From an uncultured Solirubrobacteraceae bacterium (GTDB lineage: Bacteria > Actinomycetota > Thermoleophilia > Solirubrobacterales > Solirubrobacteraceae), in the NCBI GenBank assembly GCA_964588985.1, contig CAZPQW010000001.1, positions 128,001 to 192,000 on the forward strand: a stretch of 64,000 nucleotides of DNA. The letters are read 5' to 3'. The position numbers and the translations under genes were made by a program. The notes beneath the pieces are model-generated. The model had not been told where the DNA came from and made no database searches. It saw only the letters and a list, made by a program, of their open reading frames with translations. Position 1 is the stretch's first letter. The number at the start of each line of letters is the position of its first letter. Positions 1 to 54,620 of the stretch are shown piece by piece.

Positions 1-422
1 AAGACGTGACGCAGCAGGTGTTCGCGAAGCTGATCCACGCGATCGGGAAATACGAGGAGCGTCGCGTGCCGTTCTTCGCGTGGCTCCTGCGGGTGGCGCG
101 CAATCTCGCGATCGACCACCTGCGCGGCCAGCGGATGATCCCCGTGGAGGAGGTCAGGATGAGCGACGAGGGCAGTGGCGACCCGGCCGGCGGCAGGCCG
201 ATGGCCGATCTCCAGGACGCTCTCTCGACGCTGCCCAGCGATCAGCGGGAGGTGCTAGTCCTACGTCACTTCGCCGGCCTTTCGCCGATGGAGATCGCGG
301 CGCGAACAGGCCGATCGGAAGGGTCGATTCACGGCCTTCACCATCGTGGTCGCAGGGCGCTCAGGGTCGAGCTGACAAGTCGCGGCGCGGCCCCGGCGAC
401 GATGTCGCCCAAACGCCCGTAG
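1..422 (+). CDS. ECF-type sigma-70 factor, 5'-truncated by window edge
   Basis: Region 2 (DVTQQVFAKL...FFAWLLRVARNLAIDHLR) and region 4 (LSTLPSDQREVLVLRHFAGLSPMEIA...SIHGLHHRGRRAL); the frame is open to the window start. Confidence 0.9.
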   Translation, partial: DVTQQVFAKLIHAIGKYEERRVPFFAWLLRVARNLAIDHLRGQRMIPVEEVRMSDEGSGDPAGGRPMADLQDALSTLPSDQREVLVLRHFAGLSPMEIAARTGRSEGSIHGLHHRGRRALRVELTSRGAAPATMSPKRP

Positions 423-478: not shown

Positions 479-742
479 TCACGATCCGGCCGCCTGCTCG
501 AGCTTGGTGGCGATCAGCCCGGAGATCCGCTCGATGGAGCCGAAGTTGCTCGGCACGACGTCGGCGTCGCCGATCGCGATGCCGTACTCCGACTCCAGCC
601 ACGCCACCATCCGCAGCAGCAGCATCGAGTCGATCACATGCTGCTCGATCAGGGGCAGCTCGTCGGTGAGCTCCGCGCGAGGCCCGTCCCAGTTGGCCTC
701 TTCGATCAGGAAGTCTCGGATCCGCTCCGCTTGTTGGGTCAT
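479..742 (-). CDS. Stand-alone acyl/peptidyl carrier protein (PltL/RedO-like)
   Basis: 87 aa acidic protein with IDSM phosphopantetheine site and VVPSNFGSI tail; last gene of the A-domain/dehydrogenase operon. Confidence 0.88.
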   Translation of the reverse strand: MTQQAERIRDFLIEEANWDGPRAELTDELPLIEQHVIDSMLLLRMVAWLESEYGIAIGDADVVPSNFGSIERISGLIATKLEQAAGS

Positions 743-766
743 GCCTGGTTGCCCCTTTGGTTGAAG

Positions 767-2323
767 CTACTGCTGCAAGGCCCGCCGGTCGATCTTTCCG
801 GTCGACGATTTCGGCAGCTCCGGTCGGAGCTCGATCTCGTCGGGGATCATATGGCTCGGCAGCCGCTCGCGGCACAGGCGGGCGATCCGTGCCTCGGTGA
901 TCGGTGTGCCGGTCACGACGAACGCCTTCAGGCGATTTGTGATCGTCTCGTCCGGCACGGCTATCACGGCCGCCTCGACCACGCCCTCGATCGCGCTCAG
1001 CGCCGCTTCGATCTCGCCGAGCTCCACGCGGTATCCGCGCGTCTTGATCTGCGAGTCGCGACGGCCGGCGAACAGCAGCTCGCCGTCGGAGCGCCGGCGC
1101 ACGAGATCGCCGGTGCGGTAGTGGCGAATGCCGTCCTCCGAGTGCAGCGCGCGAGCCGTCCGCTCTGCATCGTTCCAGTAGCCGTGCATCACCGTCGGGC
1201 CTCCGATCACGAGCTCGCCCAGCTCACCGTCGGGCGCGGGGGTCCCATCCTCGAGCTCGATCGCCGCGCTCACGCCGGGCAGCGGCACGCCGATCGGCAG
1301 CTCGGCCGTGGGCGGGTGCTCGCGCGGCACCTCGTGCCACGTGCATACGTTGGTCTCGGTCGGGCCGTAGAAGTTGAGATACCTGGGCATCGGCACCAGC
1401 TCCATCAGGCGCGCGAGGTACTTGATCGGGAACACCTCGCCGGCGAAGATCACCACGCGCAGCGCCGGCAGCGGCGTCTCCTCGAGCTCCCCGCGGAGCA
1501 CCAGCGCGGTGAGCGCGGAGGGCACCGAGTACCAGACCGTGATCGTCTGCTCGGCGATGAAGCGCGTGAGCATCACCGGGAAGATCGACAGGTCGCGCGG
1601 GACGAGCACCACCGCCGCGCCGCCGTGGGCGGCCGCGAACAGGTCGAAGGTGGAGAGGTCGAAGTGAAACGGCGCGTGGCTCGAGAGTCGATCCTCCGGC
1701 GTCACACCCACCTCGCGCGCGGCCCAGTCGACGAACGCGAGGCAGTTCGCGTGCGAGAGCATCACGCCCTTCGGCTCGCCGGTCGAGCCTGAGGTGTAGA
1801 GGATGTAGGCGAGCGCGTCGGGGTCGCTCGCGACGGGTGGGGCCTCGGGTGCGAAGGCCTCGACCGCGCTCCAGGACAGCCACTCCACGCCTCCCTTCGC
1901 GTCGCGGCCCTCGGCATCGCCCCCGCCAGCGCCGGCGCCAACGATCGTCTCGAGCGGCACGCCCTGGGCGAGCAGCTCTCTGCACACGCCAGCCCTCGCG
2001 TCCGAGCTCACGACGCAGCGCATACCCGCGTCGCGCGCGATGTAGGCGAGGCGGTGCACGGGCGCCTGGTCGTCGAGCGGCACGTACACCGCGCCCGCCT
2101 TCAGCACGCCGTAGATCGCGATCACCGCCTCGATCGACTTCTCGAGCGCCAGCCCAACGCGATCTCCGGGCGCGACGCCACGGGCGGCCAGCGCAGCGGC
2201 GAGGCTGCTGGACCGCGCGTCGAGCTCGGCGTAGGACAGCTCGCGCTCCCCATCGACCACCGCGATCCGCGCGCCCCCGCTCCGCGCCGCTGCGGAGAGA
2301 AGATCGTGAACCACGGCGCTCAC
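767..2323 (-). CDS. Stand-alone adenylation enzyme, L-proline--carrier ligase type (PltF/RedM-like)
   Basis: YTSGSTGEPKG, FDLS, YGPTETNVC, YRTGD, PKSSTGK; manual code about DLFYIAFVCK; GTG at 2323 overlaps the upstream TGA, so the ORF-track extension to 3343 is shadow. Confidence 0.88.
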   Translation of the reverse strand: MSAVVHDLLSAAARSGGARIAVVDGERELSYAELDARSSSLAAALAARGVAPGDRVGLALEKSIEAVIAIYGVLKAGAVYVPLDDQAPVHRLAYIARDAGMRCVVSSDARAGVCRELLAQGVPLETIVGAGAGGGDAEGRDAKGGVEWLSWSAVEAFAPEAPPVASDPDALAYILYTSGSTGEPKGVMLSHANCLAFVDWAAREVGVTPEDRLSSHAPFHFDLSTFDLFAAAHGGAAVVLVPRDLSIFPVMLTRFIAEQTITVWYSVPSALTALVLRGELEETPLPALRVVIFAGEVFPIKYLARLMELVPMPRYLNFYGPTETNVCTWHEVPREHPPTAELPIGVPLPGVSAAIELEDGTPAPDGELGELVIGGPTVMHGYWNDAERTARALHSEDGIRHYRTGDLVRRRSDGELLFAGRRDSQIKTRGYRVELGEIEAALSAIEGVVEAAVIAVPDETITNRLKAFVVTGTPITEARIARLCRERLPSHMIPDEIELRPELPKSSTGKIDRRALQQ

Positions 2324-3501
2324 AGCCCGAGGTGGCGCGCGATCACGTTGCGCTGCATCTCCGAGGTTCCCGAGTAGATCCGCGAGCCGAGCGCGTCGCG
2401 CACGTCGCGCTCGAGCCCGGTCTCGGTCATGTAACCCGAGCCGCCGTGTACCTGCAGCGCGTCGAGGCTCGACTGTACGAGCGCCTCGCTCAGGTGCAGC
2501 TTCGTCATCGCCGCGTCCAGGTCGGTTGCGGCGCCGGCGTCGAGCAGGGCCGCGATCCGATACAGCATCAGGTGAGAGGTCTGCAGGCGCAGGCGCATGT
2601 CCGCAAGCGGGTGCGAGACCGCCTGGAAGGAGCCGATCGGCGCGCGGAACTGGACGCGCTCGCGCGCATACGCGACGCAACGCTCGAGCTGGCGGCGCAT
2701 CGTGCCGACCGCGGCCGCGAGGATCAGGCTGCGCTCCCAGCGCATGGAGCTGTTGAAGATCGCCATCCCGCCGCCCGGCTCCCCAAGCAGCGCGTCGGCG
2801 CCCACGTGGCAGTCGGCGAGGAACAGCTCGCCAAGATGCGACGTTCGCAGCCCCATCTTCGAGAACGGCGAGCCGATCTCCAGCCCCGGCGCTCCACGCT
2901 CCACCACGAACGCGCACAGGCCCGCGAACCCGAGACGCACGTCGGTGGTCGCGAACACTATGAACAGATCGCTGTCGGGGGCGTTGGTGACGAACGTCTT
3001 CGAGCCGTTGAGCAGCCAGCCGTCGTCTGTGGGCGCAGCGGTCGTGCGCAGAGCAAACGCGTCCGAGCCCGATTCCGGCTCGGTCATGCCGTGCGCGGCG
3101 AGCAGCGAGCCGTCGCACAGCCCAGGCAGCCAGCGGCGCTTCTGCTCCTCGGTGCCGAAGTGCACGATCGGCATCTCGCACGCCCACATGTGCGCGTTCA
3201 ACGAGAAGATCAGCCCGTTGTCTGGGCAGCCGTAGCCGAGACCTTCGAGCGCCGCCGCGATCGTCGTCGCCGACGCGCCGAGGCCGCCGTACGCGGGGGG
3301 GACCGGCAGGCCCTGCAGGCCGAGCTGGGCGCACTTGAGCCACTCCTCCTTGGAGAACGTCCCCTCGTGGTCGCGGCGGTCGAGATCGTGGCCGAGCTGG
3401 CTCTGGGCGAAGGCGACGATCGACCGTTGCAGGGAGCGCTGCTCCTCGTCCAGAGGGTCGGGGTGAAGCGCGATCGCGCTCTGCGCTGTGGGGTTGCTCA
3501 T
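2320..3501 (-). CDS. Acyl-CoA dehydrogenase family, probable prolyl-carrier dehydrogenase (PltE/RedW-like)
   Basis: MTEPESGSDAF, LNGSKTFVTNAP, KMGLRTS, RVQFRAPIGSFQAV, QVHGGSGY, IYSGTSEMQR; ATG 3501 in ATGA overlap. Confidence 0.9.
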   Translation of the reverse strand: MSNPTAQSAIALHPDPLDEEQRSLQRSIVAFAQSQLGHDLDRRDHEGTFSKEEWLKCAQLGLQGLPVPPAYGGLGASATTIAAALEGLGYGCPDNGLIFSLNAHMWACEMPIVHFGTEEQKRRWLPGLCDGSLLAAHGMTEPESGSDAFALRTTAAPTDDGWLLNGSKTFVTNAPDSDLFIVFATTDVRLGFAGLCAFVVERGAPGLEIGSPFSKMGLRTSHLGELFLADCHVGADALLGEPGGGMAIFNSSMRWERSLILAAAVGTMRRQLERCVAYARERVQFRAPIGSFQAVSHPLADMRLRLQTSHLMLYRIAALLDAGAATDLDAAMTKLHLSEALVQSSLDALQVHGGSGYMTETGLERDVRDALGSRIYSGTSEMQRNVIARHLGL

Positions 3502-4400
3502 CGTGGGGCGGGGGCGGCGCTCGCCGGACGGGCCGGCATCAGGTAACGGGCGTAGGTCGTAAACGGACGGTAGCCGAGCCCCAGCCACACCGGAGCGCCG
3601 AGCCCCGAGGTCTGACACAGTGACAGTCGCGCGCCGAGCTCGCGGTAGCTGAGCTCGAGCGCCGCCCACAGGCAGCTCTGCGCGAGTCCGCGGCGCTCAC
3701 CCGGAGGGCCGGAGCGCGGAAGTCGCTGCCCCGGCTTCGGCCGGCGGATCGTCGCGGCCTGGCAGCCGAGGGCAACCTCGTGTGTGACGAGCGTCATCGC
3801 GGCTGACAGCGGCATGTCGTCGTAGTAGGCGACGAACGCCGCCACGTTCGGAACGTCGAGACTGTCCGGATCGAAGAACACCTTCGCCGCGACCTCACGC
3901 GGCATCGACGCCATCCCCCAAGCGTCGGCGACGAGGTCGAGGTAGTCCTCGCGCGTGCGCGCGTCCGCGGCGCGCCTGATCTCGACGCCGTCCGGCGGCG
4001 GCACGTACTCGGGCAGCTGCTCGAGCACCAGCTCCGGGAGGCGCTCCAGCTCGTGCAGCCCCTGTTGTGTCGCGGTGCGCTCCAGGTCGCCGTCGCCGTG
4101 CTCGCGCGCCCACAGCGCGTAGCCGCTCTTGCGCGGCCCGAAGAAGCTGTCGGCCAGGCGCAGGACCTCCTGCGGGCTCAGGGCCTCGCTGAGGCGCAGC
4201 GCGCCGTTGCGGTAGGGGTTCGGCTGCCGGTGGGCGCCGGCGAACAGGAGAAGCCCGTCCTCCTCGGCGAGCGCGCCTCCGTAGCGCGCGAGATACCGAA
4301 GGTACTCGGCCAGCGTCAAGTCGGCCAGGACGAGCAGATCTTTGCGCGCGCTCAGCTCGTCCGTGGCTGGCGTGTGCACTGCAGTTGCCCGCGTGTCCAC
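3498..4400 (-). CDS. GNAT-fold acyltransferase-like protein
   Basis: C-terminal half has GNAT motif A/B pattern (AAT...ERRGLAQSCL...LGARLSLCQTSGLGAPVWLGLGYRPF); translationally coupled to the dehydrogenase. Confidence 0.65.
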   Translation of the reverse strand: MDTRATAVHTPATDELSARKDLLVLADLTLAEYLRYLARYGGALAEEDGLLLFAGAHRQPNPYRNGALRLSEALSPQEVLRLADSFFGPRKSGYALWAREHGDGDLERTATQQGLHELERLPELVLEQLPEYVPPPDGVEIRRAADARTREDYLDLVADAWGMASMPREVAAKVFFDPDSLDVPNVAAFVAYYDDMPLSAAMTLVTHEVALGCQAATIRRPKPGQRLPRSGPPGERRGLAQSCLWAALELSYRELGARLSLCQTSGLGAPVWLGLGYRPFTTYARYLMPARPASAAPAPR

Positions 4401-4554: not shown

Positions 4555-5397
4555 GTGCGGCCGCGCGAGCCCCGTCCCGAGATCTGGTTCCACCGCAAGG
4601 TCAACTTCATCTCCGCGGTAAAGGAGCTGTGGCGCTTTCGCGAGCTGACGGTCACGCTTGCCGAGCGCGATCTGCGCGTCCGCTACAAGCAGGCGGTGCT
4701 CGGTGTGGCATGGGCGGTTGTGGCGCCGGTGGTGATGATGATCGCCTTCAGCGTGCTCATCAATCGCGTCACGAAGATCAACACCGGGGGCGCGCCGTAC
4801 CCGCTGTTCTCATATCTGGGGCTGCTGCCGTGGACGTTCTTCTCCAGCTCCCTGTCCACCGGCGGCCTCAGCCTGGTCTCCAACAACGAACTCCTCAACA
4901 AGCTCTACTGCCCGCGCGAGGTCTTCCCGATCGCCGCCATCGCCGACGCCGCCGTCGACGCGGTGATCGCCACGTGCGTGCTGGCGGTCCTTTTCCCGAT
5001 CGAGGGATTTGCCCCAAGGGCCGAGATCTTCTACGTGCCGCTGCTCCTGGTCGTGATGCTGATGTTCACCCTCGGCGTGACGCTTGCCGTGTCCGCAATC
5101 GTCGTATACGCCCGTGACCTGCGCCTGGTGCTGCCGCTCGCGATCCAGGTGGGGTTGTTCGTCACGCCGGTCGTCTACAGCACGGGATCGATCACCAGCT
5201 CAAAACCGCTCCTGCTCTTGTTCTCGGCGATCAACCCGCTGGTGCCGGTGATCGACGGCATGCGCGCCACGATCCTCACCGGCAATGCGCCGGAATGGGC
5301 TTCGCTGGGCGTCGGCGCGGGCAGCGCGCTGATCTTCCTGCTCGGCGGGTTCCTGCTGTTCAAGCGCCTCGAGACGGGGATGGCCGACATTGCGTGA
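4555..5397 (+). CDS. wzm: ABC-2 polysaccharide export permease (Wzm/RfbA type)
   Basis: ELWRFREL...RDLRVRYKQAVLGVAW, LLPWTFFS, KLYCPRE, FVTPVVY, NPLVPVIDGMR; GTG 4555 follows GAGGGGG; earlier starts (4444, 4468) are possible. Confidence 0.92.
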   Translation: MRPREPRPEIWFHRKVNFISAVKELWRFRELTVTLAERDLRVRYKQAVLGVAWAVVAPVVMMIAFSVLINRVTKINTGGAPYPLFSYLGLLPWTFFSSSLSTGGLSLVSNNELLNKLYCPREVFPIAAIADAAVDAVIATCVLAVLFPIEGFAPRAEIFYVPLLLVVMLMFTLGVTLAVSAIVVYARDLRLVLPLAIQVGLFVTPVVYSTGSITSSKPLLLLFSAINPLVPVIDGMRATILTGNAPEWASLGVGAGSALIFLLGGFLLFKRLETGMADIA

Positions 5398-6583
5398 GGG
5401 AACGATCGTCGCGGAGGAGATCTGGAAGCGCTTTCGCATGGACGAGCGCCCGACCTACCTGCAGGATCGGCTCTCCGGCGTCGGCGATCGCCTGCGCGGG
5501 CGGCAGGCCGACAGCTGGCGCTGGGCGCTGAACGACGTCAACCTGCGTGCCGAGCCCGGCGAATCGTGGGCGCTGGTCGGCGCCAACGGAGCCGGCAAGT
5601 CGACGCTCTTGAAGATCGTCTCGCGTGTCATGTACCAGACGGCCGGCCGTCTCGACATGGCCGGACGGGTCGGCGCGCTGATCGAAGTCAGAGCCGGGCT
5701 CACTCCGCTGCTGACCGGTCGCGAGAACATCTACCTGACCGGCTCGATCATGGGCCTGCGCCGGCGCGAGGTCGCCCAGCGCTTCGACGAGATCGTCGCG
5801 TTCGCCGAACTGGAGCGCGCGGTCGACCGTCAGGTCAAGTACTACTCGTCCGGCATGCAGATGCGGCTCGGCTTCTCGGTGGCCGCCCACCTGCAGCCCG
5901 ACATCCTGCTCGTCGACGAGGTCCTGGCGGTCGGGGACGCGAGCTTCCAGCAGCGCTGCCTGGACCAGATTCGCGCGGTGCTGAACGAAGGCACCACGCT
6001 GCTGTTCGTCTCACACGACCTGGCCGCGGTGGAGGCCACCTGCGCCAACGGGATCTGGCTGCACAACGGCGAGGTGCGCACCAGGGGGCCGATCCGCGAG
6101 GTTCTGTCCGCCTATCGCGGCGCCGTCGAGGGCGACGCCAAGGCCCGCGCCGACATCGAGGGGCTGATCAAAGTCACGAACGTCGAGGCGGTCTCCCCCG
6201 ACGGAGGGCTGGCCAAGACCGGCGGGCAGCTCGACGTCAAGCTCACCATTCACAGCGACGCGAGCCATCGAGCCTGGATCTACCTCGGGGTGACCGAGGG
6301 CGCCGCCACGCCGATCTTCCTCCTGAACCCGGGACGCGAGGTGCTGCTCGAGCCGGGCGAGACCCAGGTGATGTGCACGATCCCGTCGCTGCCGCTGCCG
6401 AGCGGACGCTTCTACGTGTGGGGTGGGATCTACAAAAACTGGACCCAGGGCGACGAGCTGATCGGCTGGCAGCCGCTGACGGAGTTCGACGTCTATGGAC
6501 CCGAGATGGATGCGGCCCCGCGCGCGGTTGTGCGCCTGTCGCCGATCCACGTCGACTCGAGCTGGGAGATCGAGGGGGCCTGA
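5390..6583 (+). CDS. wzt: Polysaccharide ABC ATPase (Wzt) with C-terminal Wzt_C-like domain
   Basis: GANGAGKST, LTGRENI, YSSGMQMRLGFS, LLVDEVLAVGDASFQ, VSHD; about 150 aa beta-rich C-terminal extension. Confidence 0.93.
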   Translation: MREGTIVAEEIWKRFRMDERPTYLQDRLSGVGDRLRGRQADSWRWALNDVNLRAEPGESWALVGANGAGKSTLLKIVSRVMYQTAGRLDMAGRVGALIEVRAGLTPLLTGRENIYLTGSIMGLRRREVAQRFDEIVAFAELERAVDRQVKYYSSGMQMRLGFSVAAHLQPDILLVDEVLAVGDASFQQRCLDQIRAVLNEGTTLLFVSHDLAAVEATCANGIWLHNGEVRTRGPIREVLSAYRGAVEGDAKARADIEGLIKVTNVEAVSPDGGLAKTGGQLDVKLTIHSDASHRAWIYLGVTEGAATPIFLLNPGREVLLEPGETQVMCTIPSLPLPSGRFYVWGGIYKNWTQGDELIGWQPLTEFDVYGPEMDAAPRAVVRLSPIHVDSSWEIEGA

Positions 6584-6611
6584 ACCGGCCTCTGGGCCGC
6601 CGAGGCCGGTT
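6583..6611. terminator. Hairpin between convergent wzt and kamA
   Basis: AACCGGCCTC-N9-GAGGCCGGTT, perfect 10-bp stem. Confidence 0.6.
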
Positions 6612-8019
6612 AGGTGACGATCGCCGGAGCTTGCGCCGGGTGCGCGCCGTCGGGCGTCTCACCCGAGCTCGCGATCTCGGCTTCCCACCACGCCTGCCCG
6701 GCCGCGGGGAGCTCGTGGATCGGGTCGTAGTACTCGAATCGCCGCATCAGCGCTTCCGGATCCTCCGCGTCGACCGATGTGAGGTAGTTCTTGGTCCAGT
6801 AGGAGATCCCGCGCTCGCGGTCGTAGTCCACGATCTGGTCGACCCAGCGCTTGCCCACGTAGGGCACGTCGCACACGAGCCGCGGCGTGGCGAAGCCCGG
6901 CAGGTAGCCCATGATCGCGCGCTGGAGTTCCTGCGCCTCGGCGACCGACAGGCGCCAGTGCTCGGATGCGGGGATCATGTCGCAGAGGTAGAAGTAGTAC
7001 GGGAGCACCCCGGCGCCGTCGAGCACCGCGAAGCACAGGTCCAGCAGCGCGTCCGGTGTCGAGTTCACTCCCCGCAGCAGCACGCCCTGGTTGCGGATGT
7101 GACGGACTCCGGCTTCGGTCATCGCCTTGGCGGCATCGGTGAACGTCTCCGTGACCTGCGACGCGACGTTGATGTGAGTGTGAATCGCGAGGCTGATGCC
7201 GCGGTCGAACGCCTTCGTGGCCACGCGCTCCACGCCGCTGCGCATCTCATCGGTGAGCCAGTGTTGCGGGAGTGACATCAGGCCCTTGCTCGCGAGCCTG
7301 ATGTCGCGGATGTTCTCGATCTCCATCAGGCCGTCGAGGAACGCCTCCAGACGTGGCCACGGCAGGTTGGTGAGGTCGCCGCCCGATACGACCACGTCGC
7401 GGACGGTGGGCGTCTTGCGCAGGTACTCGAGCATCTGCTCGCGCCGGTCGGGGGCCTTGGTCGTGAAGTGCTGTTTGGTGACCTGCGGCGTGGAGGGCCC
7501 GACGAGGTCCATGCGCGTGCAGTGCCCGCAGTACAGCGGGCAGGTGGTGACCATCTCCGCGAGCACCTTCGTGGGATAGCGGTGTATCAACCCCTCGACC
7601 GCCCACATCTCGGCCTCGTGCAGCGAATCGCGCGACGCGCGGGGGTGGGTCGGCCAGCGCGGATGCCGATCGGACGCGGCGGGCAGCACGTAGCGGCGAA
7701 CCGGGTCCGCGTAGAGCCCTTCGGTGGAGGGGACCTCTTCGGGCACCATCGTGTTCAGCACCTGGGGCGTGATCAGGATCGACATCGTCGCGTGGGTGGC
7801 CTGGTCGCGCTTGACGTCCTCGTAGAAGGAGTCCTCTACGAGGTCGCCGAGCACGGTGCGCAGGGCGCGAAGCGTTTTGATCGAGTTCGTCCGCTGCCAG
7901 CGCACGTCGCGCCACTGCGCCCTGGTGACGTCGCGCCAGCCTGGGAAGCGCCGCCACTCCGGCTCGACCGGCTCGAAGCGACGGTAGTGATACGGCTGGC
8001 GAGCGGGTGTGTCGCTCAT
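6610..8019 (-). CDS. kamA: KamA-family radical SAM/PLP 2,3-aminomutase (lysine 2,3-aminomutase-like)
   Basis: HRYPTKVL, CPLYCGHCTR, VVVSGGD, HTHIN, NQGVLLRGVN, PYYFYLCD, VGKR PLP-lysine region; ATG 8019 overlaps the NRPS stop. Confidence 0.9.
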   Translation of the reverse strand: MSDTPARQPYHYRRFEPVEPEWRRFPGWRDVTRAQWRDVRWQRTNSIKTLRALRTVLGDLVEDSFYEDVKRDQATHATMSILITPQVLNTMVPEEVPSTEGLYADPVRRYVLPAASDRHPRWPTHPRASRDSLHEAEMWAVEGLIHRYPTKVLAEMVTTCPLYCGHCTRMDLVGPSTPQVTKQHFTTKAPDRREQMLEYLRKTPTVRDVVVSGGDLTNLPWPRLEAFLDGLMEIENIRDIRLASKGLMSLPQHWLTDEMRSGVERVATKAFDRGISLAIHTHINVASQVTETFTDAAKAMTEAGVRHIRNQGVLLRGVNSTPDALLDLCFAVLDGAGVLPYYFYLCDMIPASEHWRLSVAEAQELQRAIMGYLPGFATPRLVCDVPYVGKRWVDQIVDYDRERGISYWTKNYLTSVDAEDPEALMRRFEYYDPIHELPAAGQAWWEAEIASSGETPDGAHPAQAPAIVT

Positions 8020-11000
8020 CGTCCGCTCGCTCCGTTCACGGTCCCGACCGGGTGCGCGACGCCGTTTCCGTTGCCGTTGGTCTTCTGCGCGGGCTGCGCG
8101 GCGCCGCCCGCCGCGTCCATCGCCGCTTCGAGCGCGGGAGCGAGATATTCGATGAGCGTCGGGGCGCCGTTGCCTTTGGTGATGTTCTCGTGCGTCATGT
8201 CCGGCCCGACGACCTGGTGGAGCACCACGCCTCCACGTGCAATCGGGTGCCACGGCGTCGGCTGGTCCCCGGGAGCCGTCTGCGGGCGGAAGTAGTCGAT
8301 GCGCACGTCGGAGGGCGGCGGCGAGTACATCTTCGCCGCGTGGCTCGAGGCGACGTGCACGAGGTTCCACGGCCGCCGTGGCGCCGGCAGGCCGGTCTTG
8401 CGGAGCACGTTCAGCGCGTAGTGGCCGCTGCGGAAGTAGAGCCTCGACCTGAGCCGCACCAGGCGATCGCGAACCCACACGGCTCGCTCCCTGAGGCCGC
8501 CGTCTCGGAATTCTTCGAGCTTGATGCGCCGGTTCTCCTCCTTGCTGGGCCCGCGCGTGCCCCGCGGAAAGGCGTCGATCAGCGCGACCATCCCCAGCTC
8601 CTCACCCTGCTCGGTCAGCTGCCGCGCGATCTCGTAAGCGACCACGCCGGCGAAGCAGAAGCCGCCGAAGAAGTACGGGCCGTGTGGCTGCACGCCGCGG
8701 ATCTCCTCGATGTAGTGAGTGGCGAGATCCTCGATCCGCGAGAGCGGCAGCCGGCTGCCGTCGACCCCCGGTGCGTGCAGCCCGTACAACGGCACGCTCT
8801 CCGGGAAACCCTCGACGAGCGCGTGATATCCGATCAGCCTGCCGGCGACGACGTCGACCAGGAAGAACGGAGGTCGCTCGCCCTGCGTCCGCATCGGTAC
8901 GACCGACGCCCACGTCTGCTTCTGCGTCGATGAGCTCTGCTCGTCGATCATCCGCGCGAGCTCGGCGATCGTCGCGCTCTGGAACAGCGACGCGAGCGGC
9001 AGGCGGGCGCCGAGGCGATCCTCGATCATCGCGAACAGGCGCACCGCGAGCAGCGAGTGCCCGCCCAACGCGAAGAAGTTGTCGGTGACGCCGATCTCCT
9101 CGACGCCGAGGATCTCGCGCCAGATCGCCACGAGTTGACGCTCGCTCTCGGTGCGCGCCGCCACGAGCTCGCCGGCCTCTTCCGCGCGGTCGAAGTGCGG
9201 CTCGGGCAGGGCGTTCACGTCGACCTTCCCGTTGGGGGTCCGTGGCAGCTCGTCGAGCGGCACCCACGCGGTCGGGATCATGTAGCCCGGCAGCAGCTCG
9301 GCGGCGAACGCGCGCAGCTCCTCCGGGCCCGGCGACTCGCACGCGTCCGCCGGGACCAGGTAGGCGATCAGGCGCGGCGCGCCGCTCTCGTCCTCCCGGT
9401 CGGTGACGGCCGCGGCGCTGACACGGGGGTGACGTTCGAGCACCGACTCGATCTCGCCGGGCTCGATCCTGAAGCCGCGGATCTTGAGCTGGCGGTCGCT
9501 GCGTCCGATGAATTCGATCGACCCGTCGGCGAGCCAGCGGGCGAGGTCGCCGGTGCGGTACATGCGCGCGTCGGGCTCGTCGCTGAACGGATCCGCGGCG
9601 AACCGTTCGGCGGTCAGCTCGGGGCGGTTGAGGTAGCCGCGCGCCACGCCGACGCCGCCGATGCACAGCTCGCCCGGGATCCCGATCGGCTGTGGCTCGA
9701 GGTTGGCGTCGAGCACGTACACGCGCGTGTTCGGGAGCGGCTGGCCGATCGGGACGAAACGCCCCGGGGGGAGATCCGCGTCGGGGGCGGGCTCGAAGTA
9801 CGTGCTGTCCATCGTCGCCTCGGTCAGGCCGTAGGAGTTCACCAGCCGCGTCGCGGGGCCGAGCACGCGCTTGAACTGCGTGTACTTGTCGTTTCGCCAC
9901 GGCTCTCCGCCGATCGCGAGGAACTTGAGGAAGTCGATCGGCTTGCCCTCGCGCTCGGCGTAGTCGAACAGCATCGTCGCGGTCGCCGGCACGAGCTCGG
10001 CGGCGTCCACGCCCTCGCGGGCCATCAGCGCGTACACGCTCGCCGGGTCGAGCACGACGTCCATCGGGCACAGCACGAGCTTCGCGCCCGCCGGCAGCGC
10101 GCGGACGATGTCGCCGCTGAACACGTCGAAGGAGGGGCTCGCCATCTGCAGATGGGCGCTCAGCTCGCGGAGGCGGTACTCGCCCTCGTAAGCGAAGTAC
10201 ACGCTCGCGAGGCTGCGGTTGGTGATCATCACACCCTTCGGCTTCCCGGTGGACCCGCTCGTGTAGATCACATACGCGAGGTCCGCGCCGCCTGAAGTGG
10301 TCGGAGGATCGTCCTCCGAGGCGCCGTCGAGCGCTCCGGGCGCGTCCAGCGTGACGAGCGCCGCGTCGGTGTGCGGGAGCGGGCCCGCCACGAGGCTGTG
10401 GGTCACGAGCACGTCGGGCTTGGAGTCCGCGAGCATGAACTCCAGTCGGTCCGCCGGGTACATCGGGTCGAGCGGCACGTAAGCGCCGCCGGCCTTCATG
10501 ACGCCGAGCACGGTCGCGACGAGGTCCAGCGACTTCTGCATCAGGATCCCGACCAGCTTCCCCGGCTCCACGCCGCGCTCGCTCAGCAGGGAGGCAATGC
10601 GGTTCGCCTGCCGGTTGAGCTCCGCGAACGTCATCCGCTCCTCGCCGAGCACGACGGCTTCGGCGTCGGGTGTCCGCTTCACCTGCGCCTCGAACAGATC
10701 CTTGATCGAGTCGCTCGGCTGCGCCGGCGCCTGCGAGAACCCGTTCCACGACACGAGCACCTTCGAGCGCTCCGACTCCGACAGCATGGACAGCTGCGAC
10801 AGGCGCCGCTCGGCGCCGCTCGCCGCGCTTTCGGCGAGCGCCCGGAAGTGCTCCATCATGCGGTTGACGGTCGCCGGCTTGAACAGCTCGGTGCTGTACT
10901 CCCACGTCGTGTTCATGCCGAGCTTGCGCTCGCTGACCCCGAGCAGCACGTCGAACTTCGACCAGCCCTTCGCGTGCGAGATCTCCGTGCAGCGAATGCC

Positions 11001-12254
11001 CAGCGGTTCGAACCGCGGGCGATTGTCCTGCCACGCGGGGTTGTGGTAGACGATCATCGCCTGGAAGACGGGCGTCTGACTGAGGTCGCGCTCGGGGTTC
11101 GTGGCTCGAACGACCGTCTCATATGGCACGTCGGCGTGCTGGAAGGCGTCGAGCGTGGTGTCGCGCACGCGCATGAGCAGCTCGCTGAAAGTCGGGTCGC
11201 CCGACAGGTCGACCCGCAGCGCGAGCGGATTGATGAAGTAGCCGACCATCGATTCGAGCTCGGTCCGGTTGCGTCCGGCGAACGGTGTCCCGATCACCAC
11301 GTCGTCCTGCCCGGAGTAGCGCGAGAGCAGCGTCGAGAACAACGCGAGCGTCGCGACGAACAGCGTCGTGTCGTTGCCGCGCGCCGCCGCGTGCAGGCCC
11401 TCGCGCGACGGCATGTCGAGCATCATGCTCATGTGGTCGCCGAGGTAGGAGCGGATCGGCGGCCGCGGGAAGTCGGTCGGCAGATCCAGGCGCGAGGGCG
11501 CGCCCGCGAGCTTGCGCTTCCAGTAGCCGAGCTGCGCGTCGGCGACCCCGCCGTCGAGCCACTCGCGCTGCCACACCGCATAGTCGGCGTACTGGATGGG
11601 GAGTGTCGGCAGCGATGGCTCCTCGTTGCTCGCGAAGGCGTCGTAGAACACGCTCAGGTCACGGAAGAGGGCGGTGCGCGAATAGCCGTCGGTGGCGACG
11701 TGATGCAGGTTCAGCATCAGGATGTTCTCGTTGTCCGACAACTGGATCACGGTCGCGCGCATGATCGGACCGTTGACGAGGTCGAATGCGAACCGCGACT
11801 CGTCCTTGAGGATCCTCTGCGCCTCCGCCTCGCGCTCGTCAGAGGGTTGATCGCGCAGATCGACCACGTTCAGGTCAACCGGGGCCGTCGCTCCGATCAC
11901 CTGCATCGGTCGACCGTCGATCACCGTGTAGGTGGTGCGCAGGATCTCGTGCCGCTCGATCAGCGCCTCGAACGATCGTCTGAGGACATCGAGATCCAAA
12001 GATCCCTCGAGGTGAAAAGATCCCGGAGCGTTGTATGCGACGCCGTCGTCGAACACCTGGCTGAGCAGCCACAGGAGCTCCTGCGAGTTCGACAGCACGG
12101 ACGGGCTGTGAACCTCCCGGCGCGAGATCGCGTTGCGTCGCGCCACGTCCGTCCTGCGCTGCATCAGGCGCTGCTCGAGCAGCGCGCGCTGCGCTGGAGT
12201 CAGATTCTCGAGCCGCTGCGCTACGCGGGGATCCTTGCCACCGTCAACGCTCAT
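8016..12254 (-). CDS. NRPS termination module C-A-T-TE (A: basic amino acid; TE with Cys nucleophile)
   Basis: HHVATDG; YTSGSTGKPKG; code about DVGEAGSMDK; GGHSLL; GFCFAG; ATG 12254 has a GAGAGG RBS (GTG 12278 is an alternative start). Confidence 0.93.
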   Translation of the reverse strand: MSVDGGKDPRVAQRLENLTPAQRALLEQRLMQRRTDVARRNAISRREVHSPSVLSNSQELLWLLSQVFDDGVAYNAPGSFHLEGSLDLDVLRRSFEALIERHEILRTTYTVIDGRPMQVIGATAPVDLNVVDLRDQPSDEREAEAQRILKDESRFAFDLVNGPIMRATVIQLSDNENILMLNLHHVATDGYSRTALFRDLSVFYDAFASNEEPSLPTLPIQYADYAVWQREWLDGGVADAQLGYWKRKLAGAPSRLDLPTDFPRPPIRSYLGDHMSMMLDMPSREGLHAAARGNDTTLFVATLALFSTLLSRYSGQDDVVIGTPFAGRNRTELESMVGYFINPLALRVDLSGDPTFSELLMRVRDTTLDAFQHADVPYETVVRATNPERDLSQTPVFQAMIVYHNPAWQDNRPRFEPLGIRCTEISHAKGWSKFDVLLGVSERKLGMNTTWEYSTELFKPATVNRMMEHFRALAESAASGAERRLSQLSMLSESERSKVLVSWNGFSQAPAQPSDSIKDLFEAQVKRTPDAEAVVLGEERMTFAELNRQANRIASLLSERGVEPGKLVGILMQKSLDLVATVLGVMKAGGAYVPLDPMYPADRLEFMLADSKPDVLVTHSLVAGPLPHTDAALVTLDAPGALDGASEDDPPTTSGGADLAYVIYTSGSTGKPKGVMITNRSLASVYFAYEGEYRLRELSAHLQMASPSFDVFSGDIVRALPAGAKLVLCPMDVVLDPASVYALMAREGVDAAELVPATATMLFDYAEREGKPIDFLKFLAIGGEPWRNDKYTQFKRVLGPATRLVNSYGLTEATMDSTYFEPAPDADLPPGRFVPIGQPLPNTRVYVLDANLEPQPIGIPGELCIGGVGVARGYLNRPELTAERFAADPFSDEPDARMYRTGDLARWLADGSIEFIGRSDRQLKIRGFRIEPGEIESVLERHPRVSAAAVTDREDESGAPRLIAYLVPADACESPGPEELRAFAAELLPGYMIPTAWVPLDELPRTPNGKVDVNALPEPHFDRAEEAGELVAARTESERQLVAIWREILGVEEIGVTDNFFALGGHSLLAVRLFAMIEDRLGARLPLASLFQSATIAELARMIDEQSSSTQKQTWASVVPMRTQGERPPFFLVDVVAGRLIGYHALVEGFPESVPLYGLHAPGVDGSRLPLSRIEDLATHYIEEIRGVQPHGPYFFGGFCFAGVVAYEIARQLTEQGEELGMVALIDAFPRGTRGPSKEENRRIKLEEFRDGGLRERAVWVRDRLVRLRSRLYFRSGHYALNVLRKTGLPAPRRPWNLVHVASSHAAKMYSPPPSDVRIDYFRPQTAPGDQPTPWHPIARGGVVLHQVVGPDMTHENITKGNGAPTLIEYLAPALEAAMDAAGGAAQPAQKTNGNGNGVAHPVGTVNGASGR

Positions 12255-12321
12255 CGCGGTTGCCTCTCTTCGAGCCACGGTGAGAGATCCTTGGCCATCC
12301 GTGCCTCCCCCGCAACCTCGC

Positions 12322-12394
12322 TCACATGTCCTTTGCGAGCGGAAATCTTAGCATAGGAAATTCACATCGTCGGGAGACTCGTTGCCTCTCACAT
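12322..12394 (-). promoter_or_regulatory. Internal promoter with extended -10 and three ATGTGA repeats
   Basis: Minus-strand TGCTAAGAT (12345-12353); TCACAT at 12322, 12362 and 12389 in an AT-richer gap. Confidence 0.45.
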
Positions 12395-12423
12395 GGTGGA
12401 AAACACTCACGGTTCCCCATGGT

Positions 12424-15400: not shown

Positions 15401-15663
15401 ACCTCCTGCACCGGCGCCCCGTCGATCAGCCTGATCGTCGTGCGCACTATCTCGTGCCGCTCGACCACGTGGTCGAAAGCGCGACGCAGCGTGTGCTCGT
15501 CGAGCGTGGCGGCGATCCGGTACAGGGTCGGGACGTTGTAGGCCGAGCTGCCCGGCATGATCTGGTCCAGCAGGAACAGCCGCTCCTGCGGGAACGACAA
15601 CGGCGCCGGACCATCGTCTGTGCGCCGCGTGATCGTCGTGGCGTCAGCGCGCGCCGCGCACAT
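12424..15663 (-). CDS. NRPS module C-A-T (A: Gly-like variant)
   Basis: LSFPQERL, HHMASDH, YTSGSTGQPKG, code about DLPQVGMVWK, GGHSLL, acidic C-terminal tail; ATG 15663 in TGATG overlap. Confidence 0.92.
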   Translation of the reverse strand: MCAARADATTITRRTDDGPAPLSFPQERLFLLDQIMPGSSAYNVPTLYRIAATLDEHTLRRAFDHVVERHEIVRTTIRLIDGAPVQEVSPPAPFELEVTDLRRASLPDPDGHAREILGELVRRPFDLAHDVLLRAALVHVRDGEDLLLVVLHHMASDHQSGGLLFAELDAAYTAIENGREPELAPLAVQYSDFARWQRAHLDGEPLTESIDYWTGRLAGAPDRLELPTDRPRPSAQSYRGSWYEASVPAQEVAPLRELAQREGVSLFMVLLAGFKVLLHRYTGVEDLVVGAPVSGRHHEEIAPLLGFFSNTLALRTDLSADPSFAELLERVRETMLGALTHQELPFEKLVEVLNPERARSHSPIFQVLFGYDIVGTRQRSLAGANAEQVPVPGWESARFDLSIIAHDLPDGALHLNVGHATDVFDGSTVERLIGHLRTLLEAVGRDPEQRLSRLPILTAQERQTMLVDWNATRQPYDRRCLHELFAEQAARSPEAIAVVFEHDRLTYGELDARSNQLAHELIDAGVEPGSLVGMCLERSVDLLVSMLAVLKTGAAYVPIDPTYPPQRQEFMLADAQAPALITQSRLLGAVDPRGARVICVDRDLARIEERPAGPVGVEVDPEQRAYVIYTSGSTGQPKGVEITHRSVANLVSHMRERPGLSEHDVVANLTTPAFDLSVPDWYLPLTSGARLVIVPREATLDGVELADWLARAGASFVQATPTTWQVLVDASWTGSAALKIVCGGEALSRALAEELQSRCASLWHMYGPTETTVWSSILELEPGEGPIPLGGPIANTRFYVLDANRQPVPIGVPGELLIGGDGLALGYRNREELTAEKFVGDPFSMGARARLYRTGDLVRWRKDGTLEFLGRIDQQVKLRGFRIELGEIEAVLDGHPDVSGAVAIVREDSPGDQRLVAYVVPVGDRAVDAEQLRRLCKTRLPPFMVPSAFVALDAFPVTANGKLDRSALPPPDGSRPAMERTYAAPETPVEQSLASIWSEILGVERVGLDDDFFDLGGHSLLAVKMFSRLRETFDLELFLHSVFEHSTVRGLAAIITAELYGATDEDELSALLAEVEGVD

Positions 15664-18869: not shown

Positions 18870-18947
18870 GTGGACGCTACCCCCGCTTGTTGAGCAATTC
18901 CATTAAAGGCGGAGGGTAACGGTTCATTTCATTACCGCAAGGGAAGA

Positions 18948-20414: not shown

Positions 20415-20430
20415 TCGCGGAGGCTAGAGG

Positions 20431-21336: not shown

Positions 21337-21416
21337 GTGGAAGCTCCAAGACCCGCCCGTGGGTGCACTACCGTGGCCGACGAGCAGCAATTCGGCGATA
21401 CTACCGAGGCTGTCGC

Positions 21417-22514: not shown

Positions 22515-22553
22515 ATGACTTGCGCTGGGCGTAAAATCTCGAACGGATTCGTA

Positions 22554-23537: not shown

Positions 23538-23541
23538 AGCC

Positions 23542-34778
<11,237 letters not shown>

Positions 34779-34782
<4 letters not shown>

Positions 34783-54542: not shown

Positions 54543-54620
54543 CCGGGCACCTCTGCTTCTTCGGGCCACCGGCAAAAGGCCCCCTCTAGACATATACGAG
54601 GTCGGGTAGTCTACAGGTCA

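What the first reader, a model, noticed from the sequence alone, without database searches (positions are those of the whole stretch)
4555..6583. The only exporter inside the NRPS cluster is a lipid-linked glycan Wzm/Wzt: possible peptide-decorated surface polysaccharide
Seen: wzm/wzt sit between the pyrrole cassette and kamA. No peptide exporter or siderophore uptake gene is in the window, and GTs and O-antigen-ligase-like genes follow the cluster. Established: Wzt C-terminal domains recognise terminal caps of the glycan. Inference: the NRPS product (or pyrrolyl, glycyl or sulfate groups) may be installed on an exported glycan, giving an NRPS-glycan hybrid envelope polymer.
Basis: inference. 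Interest (0 to 1): 0.78.

Follow-up and report, generated by a model that had tools for sequence, protein, structure and literature searches.

The report
Glycan-type ABC exporter fixed inside NRPS cluster
A two-gene exporter of the kind that normally moves lipid-linked sugar polymers sits inside a large peptide-synthetase gene cluster, and stays there in many related soil bacteria, so the two are probably linked, though the exported molecule is unknown.

Summary
Window 4555-5397 (+) and 5390-6583 (+) encode an overlapping Wzm/Wzt pair. The permease is an ABC-2 type closest to Wzm. The ATPase is of the Wzt/TagH type with the YSSGMxxRLGF signature. Its C-terminal domain folds like solved Wzt carbohydrate-binding domains, although no Pfam model matches it. 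The pair lies between a pyrrole cassette and a KamA-family gene followed by NRPS genes. It is the only transporter found in the window.

Of 42 genomic loci with a full-length relative (one of them partial), 28 have NRPS genes within 10 kb. These form two groups in the Wzt tree: Solirubrobacterales, and a Jatrophihabitans/Propionibacteriales group. Thirteen relatives have no NRPS gene within 10 kb; five of the six annotated sit in ordinary glycan loci.

Points for a sugar-containing cargo:
- Both sulfotransferases in the NRPS operons resemble glucosamine sulfotransferases.
- A priming sugar-phosphate transferase lies just upstream in the closest loci.
- The binding domain shows no context-specific divergence.

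Points against: three distant NRPS loci show no glycan genes nearby, and the NRPS has two thioesterase domains typical of free peptide release.

The peptide-decorated glycan idea is plausible (about 0.4) but unproven. Export of a free peptide (0.3) and an unrelated glycan (0.2) remain open.

The parts
4555..5397 (+). wzm: ABC-2 permease of the Wzm/TagG type (280 aa)
   Evidence: Pfam ABC2_membrane 1.1e-16. NCBIfam galactan Wzm/RfbD permease 5.3e-17, below cut-off. PDB: A. aeolicus Wzm 9.4e-20, mycobacterial Wzm 4.7e-13, TarG 2e-9. GTG start with GAGGGGG upstream.
5390..6583 (+). wzt: Wzt/TagH-type ATPase (397 aa). NBD about residues 1-245, hinge helix, and a C-terminal beta-sandwich carbohydrate-binding-type domain about residues 255-397 (DNA about 6131-6583).
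   Evidence: Signature YSSGMQMRLGF read, invariant in alignment A1. 8-bp overlap with wzm.
6584..6609 (.). 9-bp GC-rich inverted repeat (ACCGGCCTC ... GAGGCCGGT) between the convergent stops of wzt and the KamA-family gene; likely a bidirectional terminator
   Evidence: Read directly. Not tested further.
3498..4400 (-). GNAT-like protein (300 aa, no Pfam hit), last gene of the pyrrole operon, divergent from wzm
   Evidence: ESM Atlas nearest clusters are all GNAT, 0.96. Profile best PDB hit is a GNAT, E 0.038. The L040 homologue (32% id, E 2e-36) hits Acetyltransf_6 at 2.9e-5 and sits directly upstream of wzm on the same strand. The family has only 301 members at E <= 1e-5.
479..3501 (-). Pyrrole cassette: PCP 479-742, proline-type A domain 767-2323, prolyl-PCP dehydrogenase 2320-3501
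   Evidence: ProlPCPDhRedW 8e-131, 436 bits, below its 650-bit cut-off.
3..422 (+). ECF sigma factor (5' end cut by the window edge)
   Evidence: In L001, L003, L004, L008 and L021 it is preceded by a Bac_transf gene.
6610..8019 (-). KamA-family radical SAM aminomutase-like gene
   Evidence: NCBIfam TIGR03820 1.6e-50 and TIGR00238 6.8e-49, both below cut-off. CPLYCGHC at residue 160.
8016..21336 (-). NRPS line 1, in transcription order: sulfotransferase ST1 (20431-21336), free C domain (18948-20414), C*-A-T (15663-18869), C-A-T (12424-15663), C-A-T-TE (8016-12254)
   Evidence: ST1 best PDB match is heparan sulfate glucosamine 3-O-sulfotransferase, 2.9e-23.
21363..37823 (+). NRPS line 2: beta-propeller protein, sulfotransferase ST2 (22638-23537), T-C-A-T-C-A-T-C-A-T-C (23542-34782), C*-A-T (34779-37823)
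   Evidence: ST2 best PDB match is heparan sulfate 3-O-sulfotransferase, 2e-26; StaL only 1.5e-3.
39793..42846 (-). A-T-TE NRPS protein. The longer ORF reaching 43866 is spurious at its 5' end.
43117..44891 (+). PPTase (about 43117-43806) followed by a TauD-family dioxygenase (43836-44891)
   Evidence: tblastn of the L009/L020/L040 PPTases, 43-58% id. TauD 1.9e-45. The same adjacent pair lies within 10 kb of wzt in L009, L020, L038, L040, L049 - directly after wzt in L038, L040, L049.
37844..39790 (-). Secreted LVIVD-repeat/Ig-like protein 1
   Evidence: Signal-peptide-like N-terminus.
44961..48161 (-). Secreted LVIVD-repeat/Ig-like protein 2
   Evidence: Homologues in L009 and L012.
52204..63719 (.). 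Glycan genes after the NRPS: GT4, Wzy_C, HpcH aldolase, GFO oxidoreductase, SIS, 2-hydroxyacid dehydrogenase, FkbM methyltransferase, CTP_transf_3 cytidylyltransferase, IMPase-like, Wzy_C-like, GT2

Best explanation
What is shown. The pair is a genuine Wzm/Wzt type-V ABC exporter with a Wzt-style carbohydrate-binding domain (CBD). It is a fixed component of one NRPS cluster family in soil Actinomycetota.

Proposed mechanism (inferred). The pair exports the cluster's product as a lipid-linked, sugar-containing conjugate.
1. A polyprenyl-phosphate sugar primer is made by the Bac_transf enzyme encoded just upstream in orthologous loci. It may be extended by the flanking glycosyltransferases.
2. 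The sugar is sulfated by the two glucosamine-type sulfotransferases, which are probably co-transcribed with the NRPS genes (gaps of 4 and 16 bp).
3. The sugar receives an NRPS-made pyrrolyl or peptidyl group. Transfer could be by a TE domain, the free C domain or the GNAT-like protein.
4. The Wzt CBD recognises the finished terminus, and Wzm/Wzt moves the conjugate across the membrane.
5. Wzy_C-type or other enzymes then fix it in the envelope.

Status of each step. Shown: family, fold and conserved linkage. Inferred from what the families are known to do: lipid-linked cargo and cap recognition. Speculative: the chemical joining of peptide and sugar.
For: Family and fold. The Wzt signature YSSGMQMRLGF is read; the motif definition comes from passages of PMC11539658.

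Linkage to the NRPS.
- 28 of 42 loci with a full-length Wzt relative (one partial) have NRPS genes within 10 kb.
- In the Solirubrobacterales group, 25 of 25 loci do. The other flank varies: pyrrole cassette, glycan genes or housekeeping genes.
- The distant loci L038, L040 and L049 repeat the order wzm-wzt-TauD-PPTase-C-NRPS. L040 adds the GNAT-like gene directly upstream of wzm on the same strand.
- The GNAT-like family is tiny, 301 proteins in 5.8 billion. 29 contig lengths are shared between its top 120 hits and the Wzt top 120.

Sugar chemistry.
- ST1 and ST2 are closest to heparan-sulfate glucosamine 3-O- and N-sulfotransferases (1e-23 to 1e-26), against 1.5e-3 for the peptide sulfotransferase StaL.
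- They open or directly precede the NRPS operons, with gaps of 16 and 4 bp.
- Bac_transf lies 5-7 kb upstream of wzm in L001, L003, L004, L008, L021 and L022, and about 2 kb upstream in L020.
- Glycan genes abut wzm in L007, L014, L015, L016, L018 and L020, and lie directly downstream of wzt in L009.

No sign of a change of function. CBD identity tracks NBD identity whatever the context: glycan-context L025 against NRPS-context L020 is 79% in the NBD and 62% in the CBD. The nearest NRPS-free relatives sit in classical glycan loci.
Against: - L038, L040 and L049 have no glycosyltransferase or other glycan gene in the 10-kb flanks. In L040 the transporter is flanked by NRPS genes on both sides.
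- The NRPS has eight modules, a pyrrole starter and two TE domains. That is the usual design for a released peptide. No multi-module NRPS is known to me to decorate a glycan (recalled).
- The 45-kb NRPS core of the window contains no glycosyltransferase.
- Several flanking glycan loci are of the Wzx/Wzy type, with Polysacc_synt, Wzy_C and BY-kinase-like genes. They may not need Wzm/Wzt.
- The Pfam Wzt_C model does not match the C-terminal domain, and the profile match to the A. aeolicus CBD is only E 0.04.
- The glycan genes of L025 have no close orthologues beside NRPS-context relatives, so no single conserved glycan is visible.
- Most of the 28 loci are related by descent. The association needs only one or two origins.
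Confidence: 0.4

Rival explanations
1. Co-opted product pump. The Wzm/Wzt pair has been recruited as the dedicated exporter, and possibly the immunity pump, for a free, perhaps sulfated, pyrrole-capped nonribosomal peptide. No glycan is involved. The former carbohydrate-binding domain now binds the peptide or only serves in dimerisation and allostery. The GNAT-like protein may be a self-resistance acyltransferase.
For: It is the only transporter in the window's cluster. It is conserved next to NRPS genes in 28 loci and embedded between NRPS genes in L040, with no glycan genes within 10 kb in L038, L040 and L049. The NRPS has TE-terminated lines. A related type-V ABC system, DrrABC, with a non-homologous C-terminal domain on its ATPase, exports the polyketide lipid PDIM (passages of PMC11539658). 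That its genes lie in the PDIM locus is recalled. L036 and L037 relatives lie beside lasso-peptide-like genes.
Against: The NBD scores much higher for TagH and Wzt (186 and 160 bits) than for DrrA (99 bits). As far as I know (recalled), every characterised member of the Wzt/TagH subfamily moves polyprenyl-linked polymers. The CBD and Wzm show no extra divergence between glycan and NRPS contexts. The sulfotransferases are of the carbohydrate type.
Confidence: 0.3
2. Unrelated neighbour. Wzm/Wzt exports an ordinary wall or surface glycan of the surrounding glycan locus. The NRPS genes are an island that settled beside it, and the adjacency persists through common descent or shared regulation, for example by the ECF sigma factor. 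There is no chemical link.
For: Glycan genes flank the region on one or both sides in many Solirubrobacterales loci and in the window. The closest NRPS-free relatives, L025 and L034, lie in glycan loci and sit inside the same 100%-supported clade. The 25 Solirubrobacterales loci are not independent observations.
Against: The flank opposite the NRPS changes between genomes while the wzt-NRPS junction is kept in 25 of 25. A second Wzt group in other orders is again joined to the same NRPS family, without visible glycan genes. In the window the nearest glycosyltransferase is 45 kb away, while NRPS-pathway genes touch both sides.
Confidence: 0.2
3. Self-protection copy. The peptide attacks lipid-linked wall precursors or their exporter, and the cluster carries a resistant or extra Wzm/Wzt so that the producer's own polymer export continues.
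For: Only by analogy with resistance-by-target-duplication in other clusters (recalled). L011 has two PAP2 phosphatases upstream.
Against: No second copy could be looked for, because only the window and 10-kb flanks are held. Nothing in the sequences points to it.
Confidence: 0.05

Closest known systems
Aquifex aeolicus WzmWzt O-antigen ABC transporter (PDB 6m96, 7k2t, 8dku, 8dl0; CBD 6o14, 8dky)
   Same: Best sequence and fold match for both subunits. Two-gene pair. Wzt signature motif. Helix after the first strand. Hinge helix followed by a C-terminal beta-sandwich CBD.
   Different: Only about 30% identity over the full length and 16% in the CBD. The host is a Gram-positive-type actinobacterium without LPS. 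The pair sits in an NRPS cluster rather than an O-antigen locus. The CBD ligand is unknown.
Wzt CBDs of Raoultella terrigena/Klebsiella O12 (5hno, 5hnp; Kdo cap) and E. coli O9a (2r5o)
   Same: Top structural matches of the C-terminal domain: TMq 0.63 and 0.55. In these systems the domain recognises the chain-terminating cap (abstract of PMC9445017 as shown in the listing; PDB titles).
   Different: No sequence-level Pfam match. Cap chemistry here is unknown. No WbdD-like terminator gene was seen.
TagGH/TarGH wall teichoic acid exporters and mycobacterial Wzm-Wzt galactan exporter (7dd0, 6jbh, 9cfl, 9qfx)
   Same: Same NBD and permease subfamily. Gram-positive or actinobacterial envelope polymers on polyprenyl carriers.
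   Different: The TarH/TagH and mycobacterial Wzt (RfbE) chains matched here are 260-280 aa and the matches cover the NBD only. Here the CBD is conserved in all 27 actinobacterial relatives aligned; L043, from another phylum, is cut short.
DrrABC (PDIM) and DrrAB-type ABC-2 exporters in megasynthase clusters
   Same: A type-V ABC exporter with a C-terminal extension on the ATPase, thought to handle the substrate (passages of PMC11539658). That it is encoded beside PKS genes is recalled.
   Different: The DrrA family model scores only 99 bits against 186 for TagH. The DrrA C-terminal domain is not homologous to the Wzt CBD (same paper).
Carrier-protein-dependent decoration of envelope glycans and glycolipids: Dlt D-alanylation of teichoic acids; PapA/Stf0 sulfolipid-1; Pks13 TE transfer to trehalose; glycopeptidolipids (all recalled, not tested)
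   Same: Precedents for adenylation or carrier proteins, free C-domain acyltransferases, TE domains and sulfotransferases acting on sugars of the envelope.
   Different: None of them uses Wzm/Wzt for export, and none uses a multi-module NRPS to decorate a polymer. No DltB/MBOAT or MmpL gene is in the window.

Membership tests
Wzm/Wzt (TagGH) polymer-exporting type-V ABC transporters | ABC-2 permease related to Wzm/TagG | tested here: met
   Pfam ABC2_membrane 1.1e-16. The best PDB hits are all Wzm/TarG/TagG permeases: 9.4e-20 to 2e-9. The NCBIfam galactan permease model scores 62 bits, below its equivalog cut-off of 380, so it is not that orthologue.
Wzm/Wzt (TagGH) polymer-exporting type-V ABC transporters | NBD of the Wzt/TagH subfamily with the modified signature Y-S-S/T-G-M-x-x-R/K-L-A/G-F and a helical insertion after the first beta strand | tested here: met
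   YSSGMQMRLGF at residues 152-162, invariant in 28 of 28 aligned sequences. The model has helix 24-35 after strand 5-16. TagH 186 bits against DrrA 99 bits. The motif definition is from passages of PMC11539658.
Wzm/Wzt (TagGH) polymer-exporting type-V ABC transporters | Adjacent, co-transcribed permease and ATPase genes | tested here: met
   8-bp overlap at 5390-5397. The same order is seen in the 39 actinobacterial loci (L001-L041, L049) where both genes are on the contig; in three distant loci (L050-L052) wzt comes first.
CBD-bearing Wzt (cap-dependent O-antigen exporters) | C-terminal beta-sandwich carbohydrate-binding domain | tested here: met
   By fold. The domain-only model (pLDDT 82) has Wzt CBDs as its top PDB hits, 2.4e-7 to 4e-4, TMq 0.55-0.65. 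The full-length model aligns over 375-385 columns to full-length A. aeolicus Wzt. The profile's best PDB sequence hits are the A. aeolicus CBD, E 0.04-0.05.
CBD-bearing Wzt (cap-dependent O-antigen exporters) | Match to the Pfam family model for the Wzt C-terminal domain | tested here: not met
   No Pfam family at E <= 10 for residues 241-397, and none precomputed for homologues. That Pfam holds such a model (Wzt_C) is recalled.
CBD-bearing Wzt (cap-dependent O-antigen exporters) | Binds a chain-terminating cap on a polyprenyl-diphosphate-linked glycan; a dedicated terminator enzyme is encoded nearby | not testable with these tools
   No WbdD-like kinase or methyltransferase lies beside wzt in the window. 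Methyltransferases do follow wzt in the glycan-context relatives L025, L027 and L034.
ABC-transporter-dependent glycan locus | Priming transferase and glycosyltransferases in the same locus | tested here: inconclusive
   Window: GT4, GT2 and Wzy_C lie 45 kb or more from wzt. Bac_transf lies 5-7 kb upstream in six orthologous loci, and about 2 kb upstream in L020. None is present within 10 kb in L038, L040, L049 or L011.
DrrAB-type antibiotic exporters of biosynthetic clusters | ATPase of the DrrA subfamily | tested here: not met
   TIGR01188 drrA scores 99 bits against a cut-off of 312, well below the TagH and Wzt scores.
Dlt-like carrier-protein-dependent decoration of wall polymers | MBOAT (DltB) and DltD partners beside the adenylation and carrier proteins | tested here: not met
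   No such Pfam family among the window's proteins.
GNAT acyltransferases (for the 300-aa protein at 3498-4400) | Sequence or profile match to a GNAT family | tested here: inconclusive
   No Pfam or NCBIfam hit. ESM Atlas neighbours are all GNAT, 0.96. The profile's best PDB hit is a GNAT at E 0.038. The L040 homologue hits Acetyltransf_6 at 2.9e-5.

The most novel reading that the evidence does not exclude
A family of soil Actinomycetota builds an envelope glycoconjugate whose lipid-linked, sulfated sugar part carries a multi-residue, pyrrole-capped nonribosomal peptide. A Wzm/Wzt exporter checks the finished NRPS-made terminus with its carbohydrate-binding-type domain before export. This would be a true NRPS-glycan hybrid polymer pathway.
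Probability: 0.3. Interest if true: 0.85.

Novelty: new variant of a known kind. Interest (0 to 1): 0.62.

Why it matters
Wzm/Wzt exporters are known only as movers of polyprenyl-linked sugar polymers: O antigens, teichoic acids and galactan. NRPS clusters normally carry drug-type pumps.

A CBD-bearing Wzm/Wzt kept inside one NRPS family across at least two actinobacterial classes therefore leaves two possibilities. Either it points to an undescribed peptide-glycan conjugate of the cell envelope, or this exporter class can be recruited for a non-glycan natural product. Either answer would widen what is known about type-V ABC exporters and about how Wzt binding domains read their cargo.

It also flags a large, vertically conserved NRPS cluster in abundant, small-genome, mostly uncultured soil Solirubrobacterales whose product is unknown.

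The question can be tested directly: mutants or heterologous expression, product analysis, and CBD binding assays.

Tried and rejected
1. First working idea: wzm/wzt is a housekeeping envelope gene that merely borders a variable NRPS. This came from the 75-94% identity of more than 120 homologue clusters. It was rejected because the NRPS itself is conserved beside it in 25 of 25 loci of that group.
2. Pfam on the C-terminal domain alone at E <= 10: no hit. Fold comparison was needed instead.
3. Is the GNAT-like protein the same family as the Acetyltransf_6 gene near wzt in glycan-context L025 and L034? BLASTP gave E 0.23 and hhalign probability 0.6%. It is not.
4. Is the unknown 336-aa protein (49994-51004) an HPr-kinase-like protein, as in the lasso-like neighbours of L037? 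There is no similarity. The NTP_transf_5 proteins are only weakly alike, 2e-7.
5. Do L025's glycan genes recur beside NRPS-context relatives? Only weak hits: DegT 39-40% in L009 and GT4 40% in L020.
6. A single clade of all NRPS-linked Wzt is rejected by the AU test (p 5.8e-5, group named after seeing the tree). With L025 and L034 included, the set is already one side of a branch with support 50. One gain plus one loss, or two gains, both remain possible.
7. Rfam scan of the whole window: 0 matches.
8. Literature. Searches for Wzt or Wzm with NRPS terms, Solirubrobacter clusters, carrier-protein aminoacylation of polysaccharides and pyrrole with sulfotransferase and NRPS listed no paper whose title or abstract start bears on such a link. 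Only listings were seen. Subscription journals are not covered.
Full report
**Source and gene map**

The window has about 64-74% G+C, so raw ORF lists are useless. I called genes with a codon-usage model. Homologues named by their sources come from Solirubrobacterales and Solirubrobacteraceae MAGs.

Gene order, with evidence:
- ECF sigma factor, 3-422 (+).
- Pyrrole cassette on the minus strand: PCP 479-742, A domain 767-2323, prolyl-PCP dehydrogenase 2320-3501.
- A 300-aa protein with no Pfam hit, 3498-4400 (-).
- wzm 4555-5397 (+) and wzt 5390-6583 (+).
- KamA-family radical SAM gene, 6610-8019 (-).
- NRPS line 1 on the minus strand: sulfotransferase ST1, free C domain, C*-A-T, C-A-T, C-A-T-TE.
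- NRPS line 2 on the plus strand: beta-propeller protein, sulfotransferase ST2, T-C-A-T-C-A-T-C-A-T-C, C*-A-T.
- Secreted LVIVD protein; A-T-TE; PPTase and TauD; a second LVIVD protein.
- Two secreted unknown proteins; NTP_transf_5.
- Glycan genes: GT4, Wzy_C, a CMP-sugar-like pathway, a second Wzy_C-like gene, GT2.

**Checking the observation**

The coordinates are exact.
- Wzm is an ABC-2 permease. All seven of its solved matches (E <= 0.01) are permeases of this kind; six are Wzm or TarG/TagG chains.
- Wzt scores 186 bits for TagH and 160 for Wzt/RfbE, against 99 for DrrA. It matches the A. aeolicus Wzt NBD at 1.7e-53.
- Wzt carries YSSGMQMRLGF. This fits the Wzt-family signature quoted in PMC11539658 (passages).
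- The genes overlap by 8 bp. A 9-bp GC-rich hairpin separates wzt from the convergent KamA-family gene.

The C-terminal 150 residues match no Pfam model even at E <= 10. Three other lines identify them as a Wzt-type carbohydrate-binding domain (CBD).
- A profile of 20 homologues has the A. aeolicus Wzt CBD as its best PDB sequence hit, E 0.04-0.05.
- The full-length model (pLDDT 80) aligns over 375-385 columns to full-length A. aeolicus Wzt at 1e-31 to 1e-33, against 1e-23 for NBD-only chains.
- The domain-only model (pLDDT 82) has Wzt CBDs as its top matches: 5hno/5hnp, 6o14/8dky and 2r5o, with TMq 0.55-0.65.

No other transporter or uptake gene is among the called genes.

**Is the transporter tied to the NRPS?**

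My first guess was that it is not. More than 120 homologue clusters are 75-94% identical, which looks like a core envelope gene.

Of these, 42 hold a relative covering the CBD; L023 is partial and L039 is a 1.9-kb contig.

tblastn of all window proteins against the loci gave:
- 28 loci with NRPS genes within 10 kb: L001-L024, L041, L038, L040, L049.
- 13 loci without: L025-L037.
- 1 uninformative locus.

In the Solirubrobacterales group all 25 loci have the NRPS. An orthologue of the C-A-T-TE protein is at 61-70% identity in most of them. The flank on the other side of wzm differs between loci:
- the pyrrole cassette with the 300-aa gene, in about 14 loci;
- glycan genes directly abutting wzm in L007, L014, L015, L016, L018 and L020 (GT4, GT2, Wzy_C, Wzz/BY-kinase-like, Bac_transf, hexapeptide acyltransferase, Wzx-like); in L009 the glycan genes follow wzt;
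- housekeeping genes in L011.

The distant loci L038, L040 and L049 have Wzt at 49-50% identity. One is from Jatrophihabitans, one from Propionibacteriales and one from an unclassified actinobacterium. They show wzm-wzt followed by TauD, PPTase, a C domain and NRPS. The TauD-PPTase pair also occurs in the window and in L009 and L020. In L040 a homologue of the 300-aa gene (32% identity, E 2e-36) sits directly upstream of wzm on the same strand, and NRPS genes lie on both sides.

**The NRPS-free relatives**

I annotated six of the 13: L025, L026, L027, L034, L035 and L037.
- L025 and L034 (63-65% identity) lie among GT4, GT2, DegT aminotransferase, methyltransferase and GNAT genes.
- L026 lies among two sulfotransferases and GT4s.
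- Kitasatospora L027 lies among five GT4s, GT2, a BY-kinase-like gene, deacetylases and a methyltransferase. The six other Kitasatospora loci were not scanned.
- L035 lies among NeuB, a UDP-sugar dehydrogenase, glycosyltransferases and Wzy_C.
- L037 lies beside lasso-peptide-like genes.

The wider family is therefore a normal glycan exporter family.

**Tree**

I built a tree of 40 full-length Wzt sequences. Dropped rows: L019, L022 and L041 (internal stops), L023 (partial), and L042 and L044-L057 (NBD-only matches from other phyla).
- The NRPS-linked rows fall in two groups. Glycan-linked rows lie around them, and L025 and L034 are nested beside L020 inside a 100%-supported clade.
- Holding all NRPS-linked rows together is rejected (p-AU 5.8e-5). 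The group was chosen after seeing the tree.
- Adding L025 and L034 gives a set that the best tree already unites, with support 50.
- The link therefore arose once with one loss, or twice. Most of the 28 loci are not independent observations.

**What the cargo might be**

Four observations favour a sugar-containing cargo.
1. The CBD and Wzm show no jump in divergence between contexts. CBD identity follows NBD identity: L025 against L020 is 79% and 62%, and the ratios elsewhere fit the same trend.
2. ST1 and ST2 open or directly precede the two NRPS operons. They are closest to heparan-sulfate glucosamine 3-O- and N-sulfotransferases (2.9e-23 and 2e-26). The peptide sulfotransferase StaL scores 1.5e-3 for ST2 and is absent from the ST1 list.
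3. In the window's closest relatives a Bac_transf priming transferase lies between aspartokinase and the ECF sigma factor, 5-7 kb upstream of wzm (L001, L003, L004, L008, L021, L022). The same gene probably lies just left of the window.
4. The 300-aa protein is probably a GNAT-type acyltransferase. It belongs to a tiny family of 301 proteins at E <= 1e-5.

Four observations go the other way.
1. L038, L040 and L049 have no glycan gene in 20 kb.
2. The NRPS has eight modules and two TE domains.
3. There is no glycosyltransferase in the 45-kb NRPS core.
4. Several flanking glycan loci look Wzx/Wzy-dependent.

**Verdict**

I put about 0.7 on the transporter's cargo containing the NRPS-made moiety.
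- 0.4: a lipid-linked sugar conjugate.
- 0.3: a free peptide exported by a co-opted pump.
- 0.2: an unrelated glycan whose exporter merely neighbours the NRPS.
- 0.05: a self-protection copy.

The chemical joining of peptide and glycan is entirely inferred.

**Novelty and limits**

Five literature searches (listings only) listed no paper whose title or abstract start bears on a Wzm/Wzt-NRPS link. The established role of Wzt CBDs in recognising modified glycan termini is stated in the abstract of PMC9445017 (listing).

Left unchecked:
- genes beyond the 10-kb flanks;
- any second Wzm/Wzt copy in these genomes.

No supplementary files were consulted.

Noticed in passing
window 42846-43866: The long minus-strand ORF of the A-T-TE NRPS gene overruns a plus-strand PPTase gene (about 43117-43806, 43-58% identical to the PPTases of L009, L020 and L040) that directly precedes TauD. 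The first 490 residues of the long ORF have no Pfam hit. The true NRPS start is probably near 42846.
   Followed up: yes
window 6584-6609: A perfect 9-bp GC-rich inverted repeat lies between the convergent stop codons of wzt and the KamA-family gene. It is a likely bidirectional terminator.
   Followed up: partly
L036 7824-11355; L037 11143-15985; L024 1-3231: Lasso-peptide-like gene sets (Transglut_core3, HPr_kinase_C-like, asparagine-synthase/GATase, NTP_transf_5, and in L024 an ABC-2 permease of their own) lie beside Wzm/Wzt relatives. In L024 they lie beside the NRPS cluster.
   Followed up: partly
window 48499-51004; L005 2750-3649; L008 3433-5031; L009 18258-19277; L022 about 4088-5008: Two paralogous secreted proteins of unknown family, one with a proline-rich extensin-like stretch, recur next to the cluster in other genomes, but on the opposite side of it. 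This indicates rearrangement around a conserved core.
   Followed up: partly
window 37844-39790 and 44961-48161: Two large LVIVD-repeat beta-propeller proteins with Ig-like domains and signal-peptide-like N-termini are embedded among the NRPS genes. Homologues lie in L009 and L012.
   Followed up: no
window 54669-61156: A run of HpcH aldolase, GFO oxidoreductase, SIS isomerase, 2-hydroxyacid dehydrogenase, FkbM methyltransferase, CTP_transf_3 cytidylyltransferase and an IMPase-like phosphatase. It looks like a pathway for a CMP-activated acidic sugar.
   Followed up: no
L019, L022, L041 (Wzt match regions); L008, L021: The Wzt reading frames carry 2-9 internal stops, and neighbouring genes give fragmented matches. 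Assembly indels in these MAGs or real decay could both explain this. The three rows were left out of the tree.
   Followed up: no
L007 12508-13407; L014 11204-12397; L018 5447-6625; L020 11212-12351 (also L003, L010, L012, L015, L016, L017, L023): An alpha/beta-hydrolase (Esterase_PHB-like) gene recurs in 11 loci within the NRPS cluster: directly after wzt (convergent) in L014, L016, L018 and L020, and within about 2 kb of it in L007, L015, L017 and L023. It has no counterpart in the window.
   Followed up: partly
L026 369-2296: Two sulfotransferase genes lie a few kb upstream of wzm in an NRPS-free glycan locus of an Acidimicrobiales MAG. Sulfation may be a recurring theme for this exporter family.
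   Followed up: no
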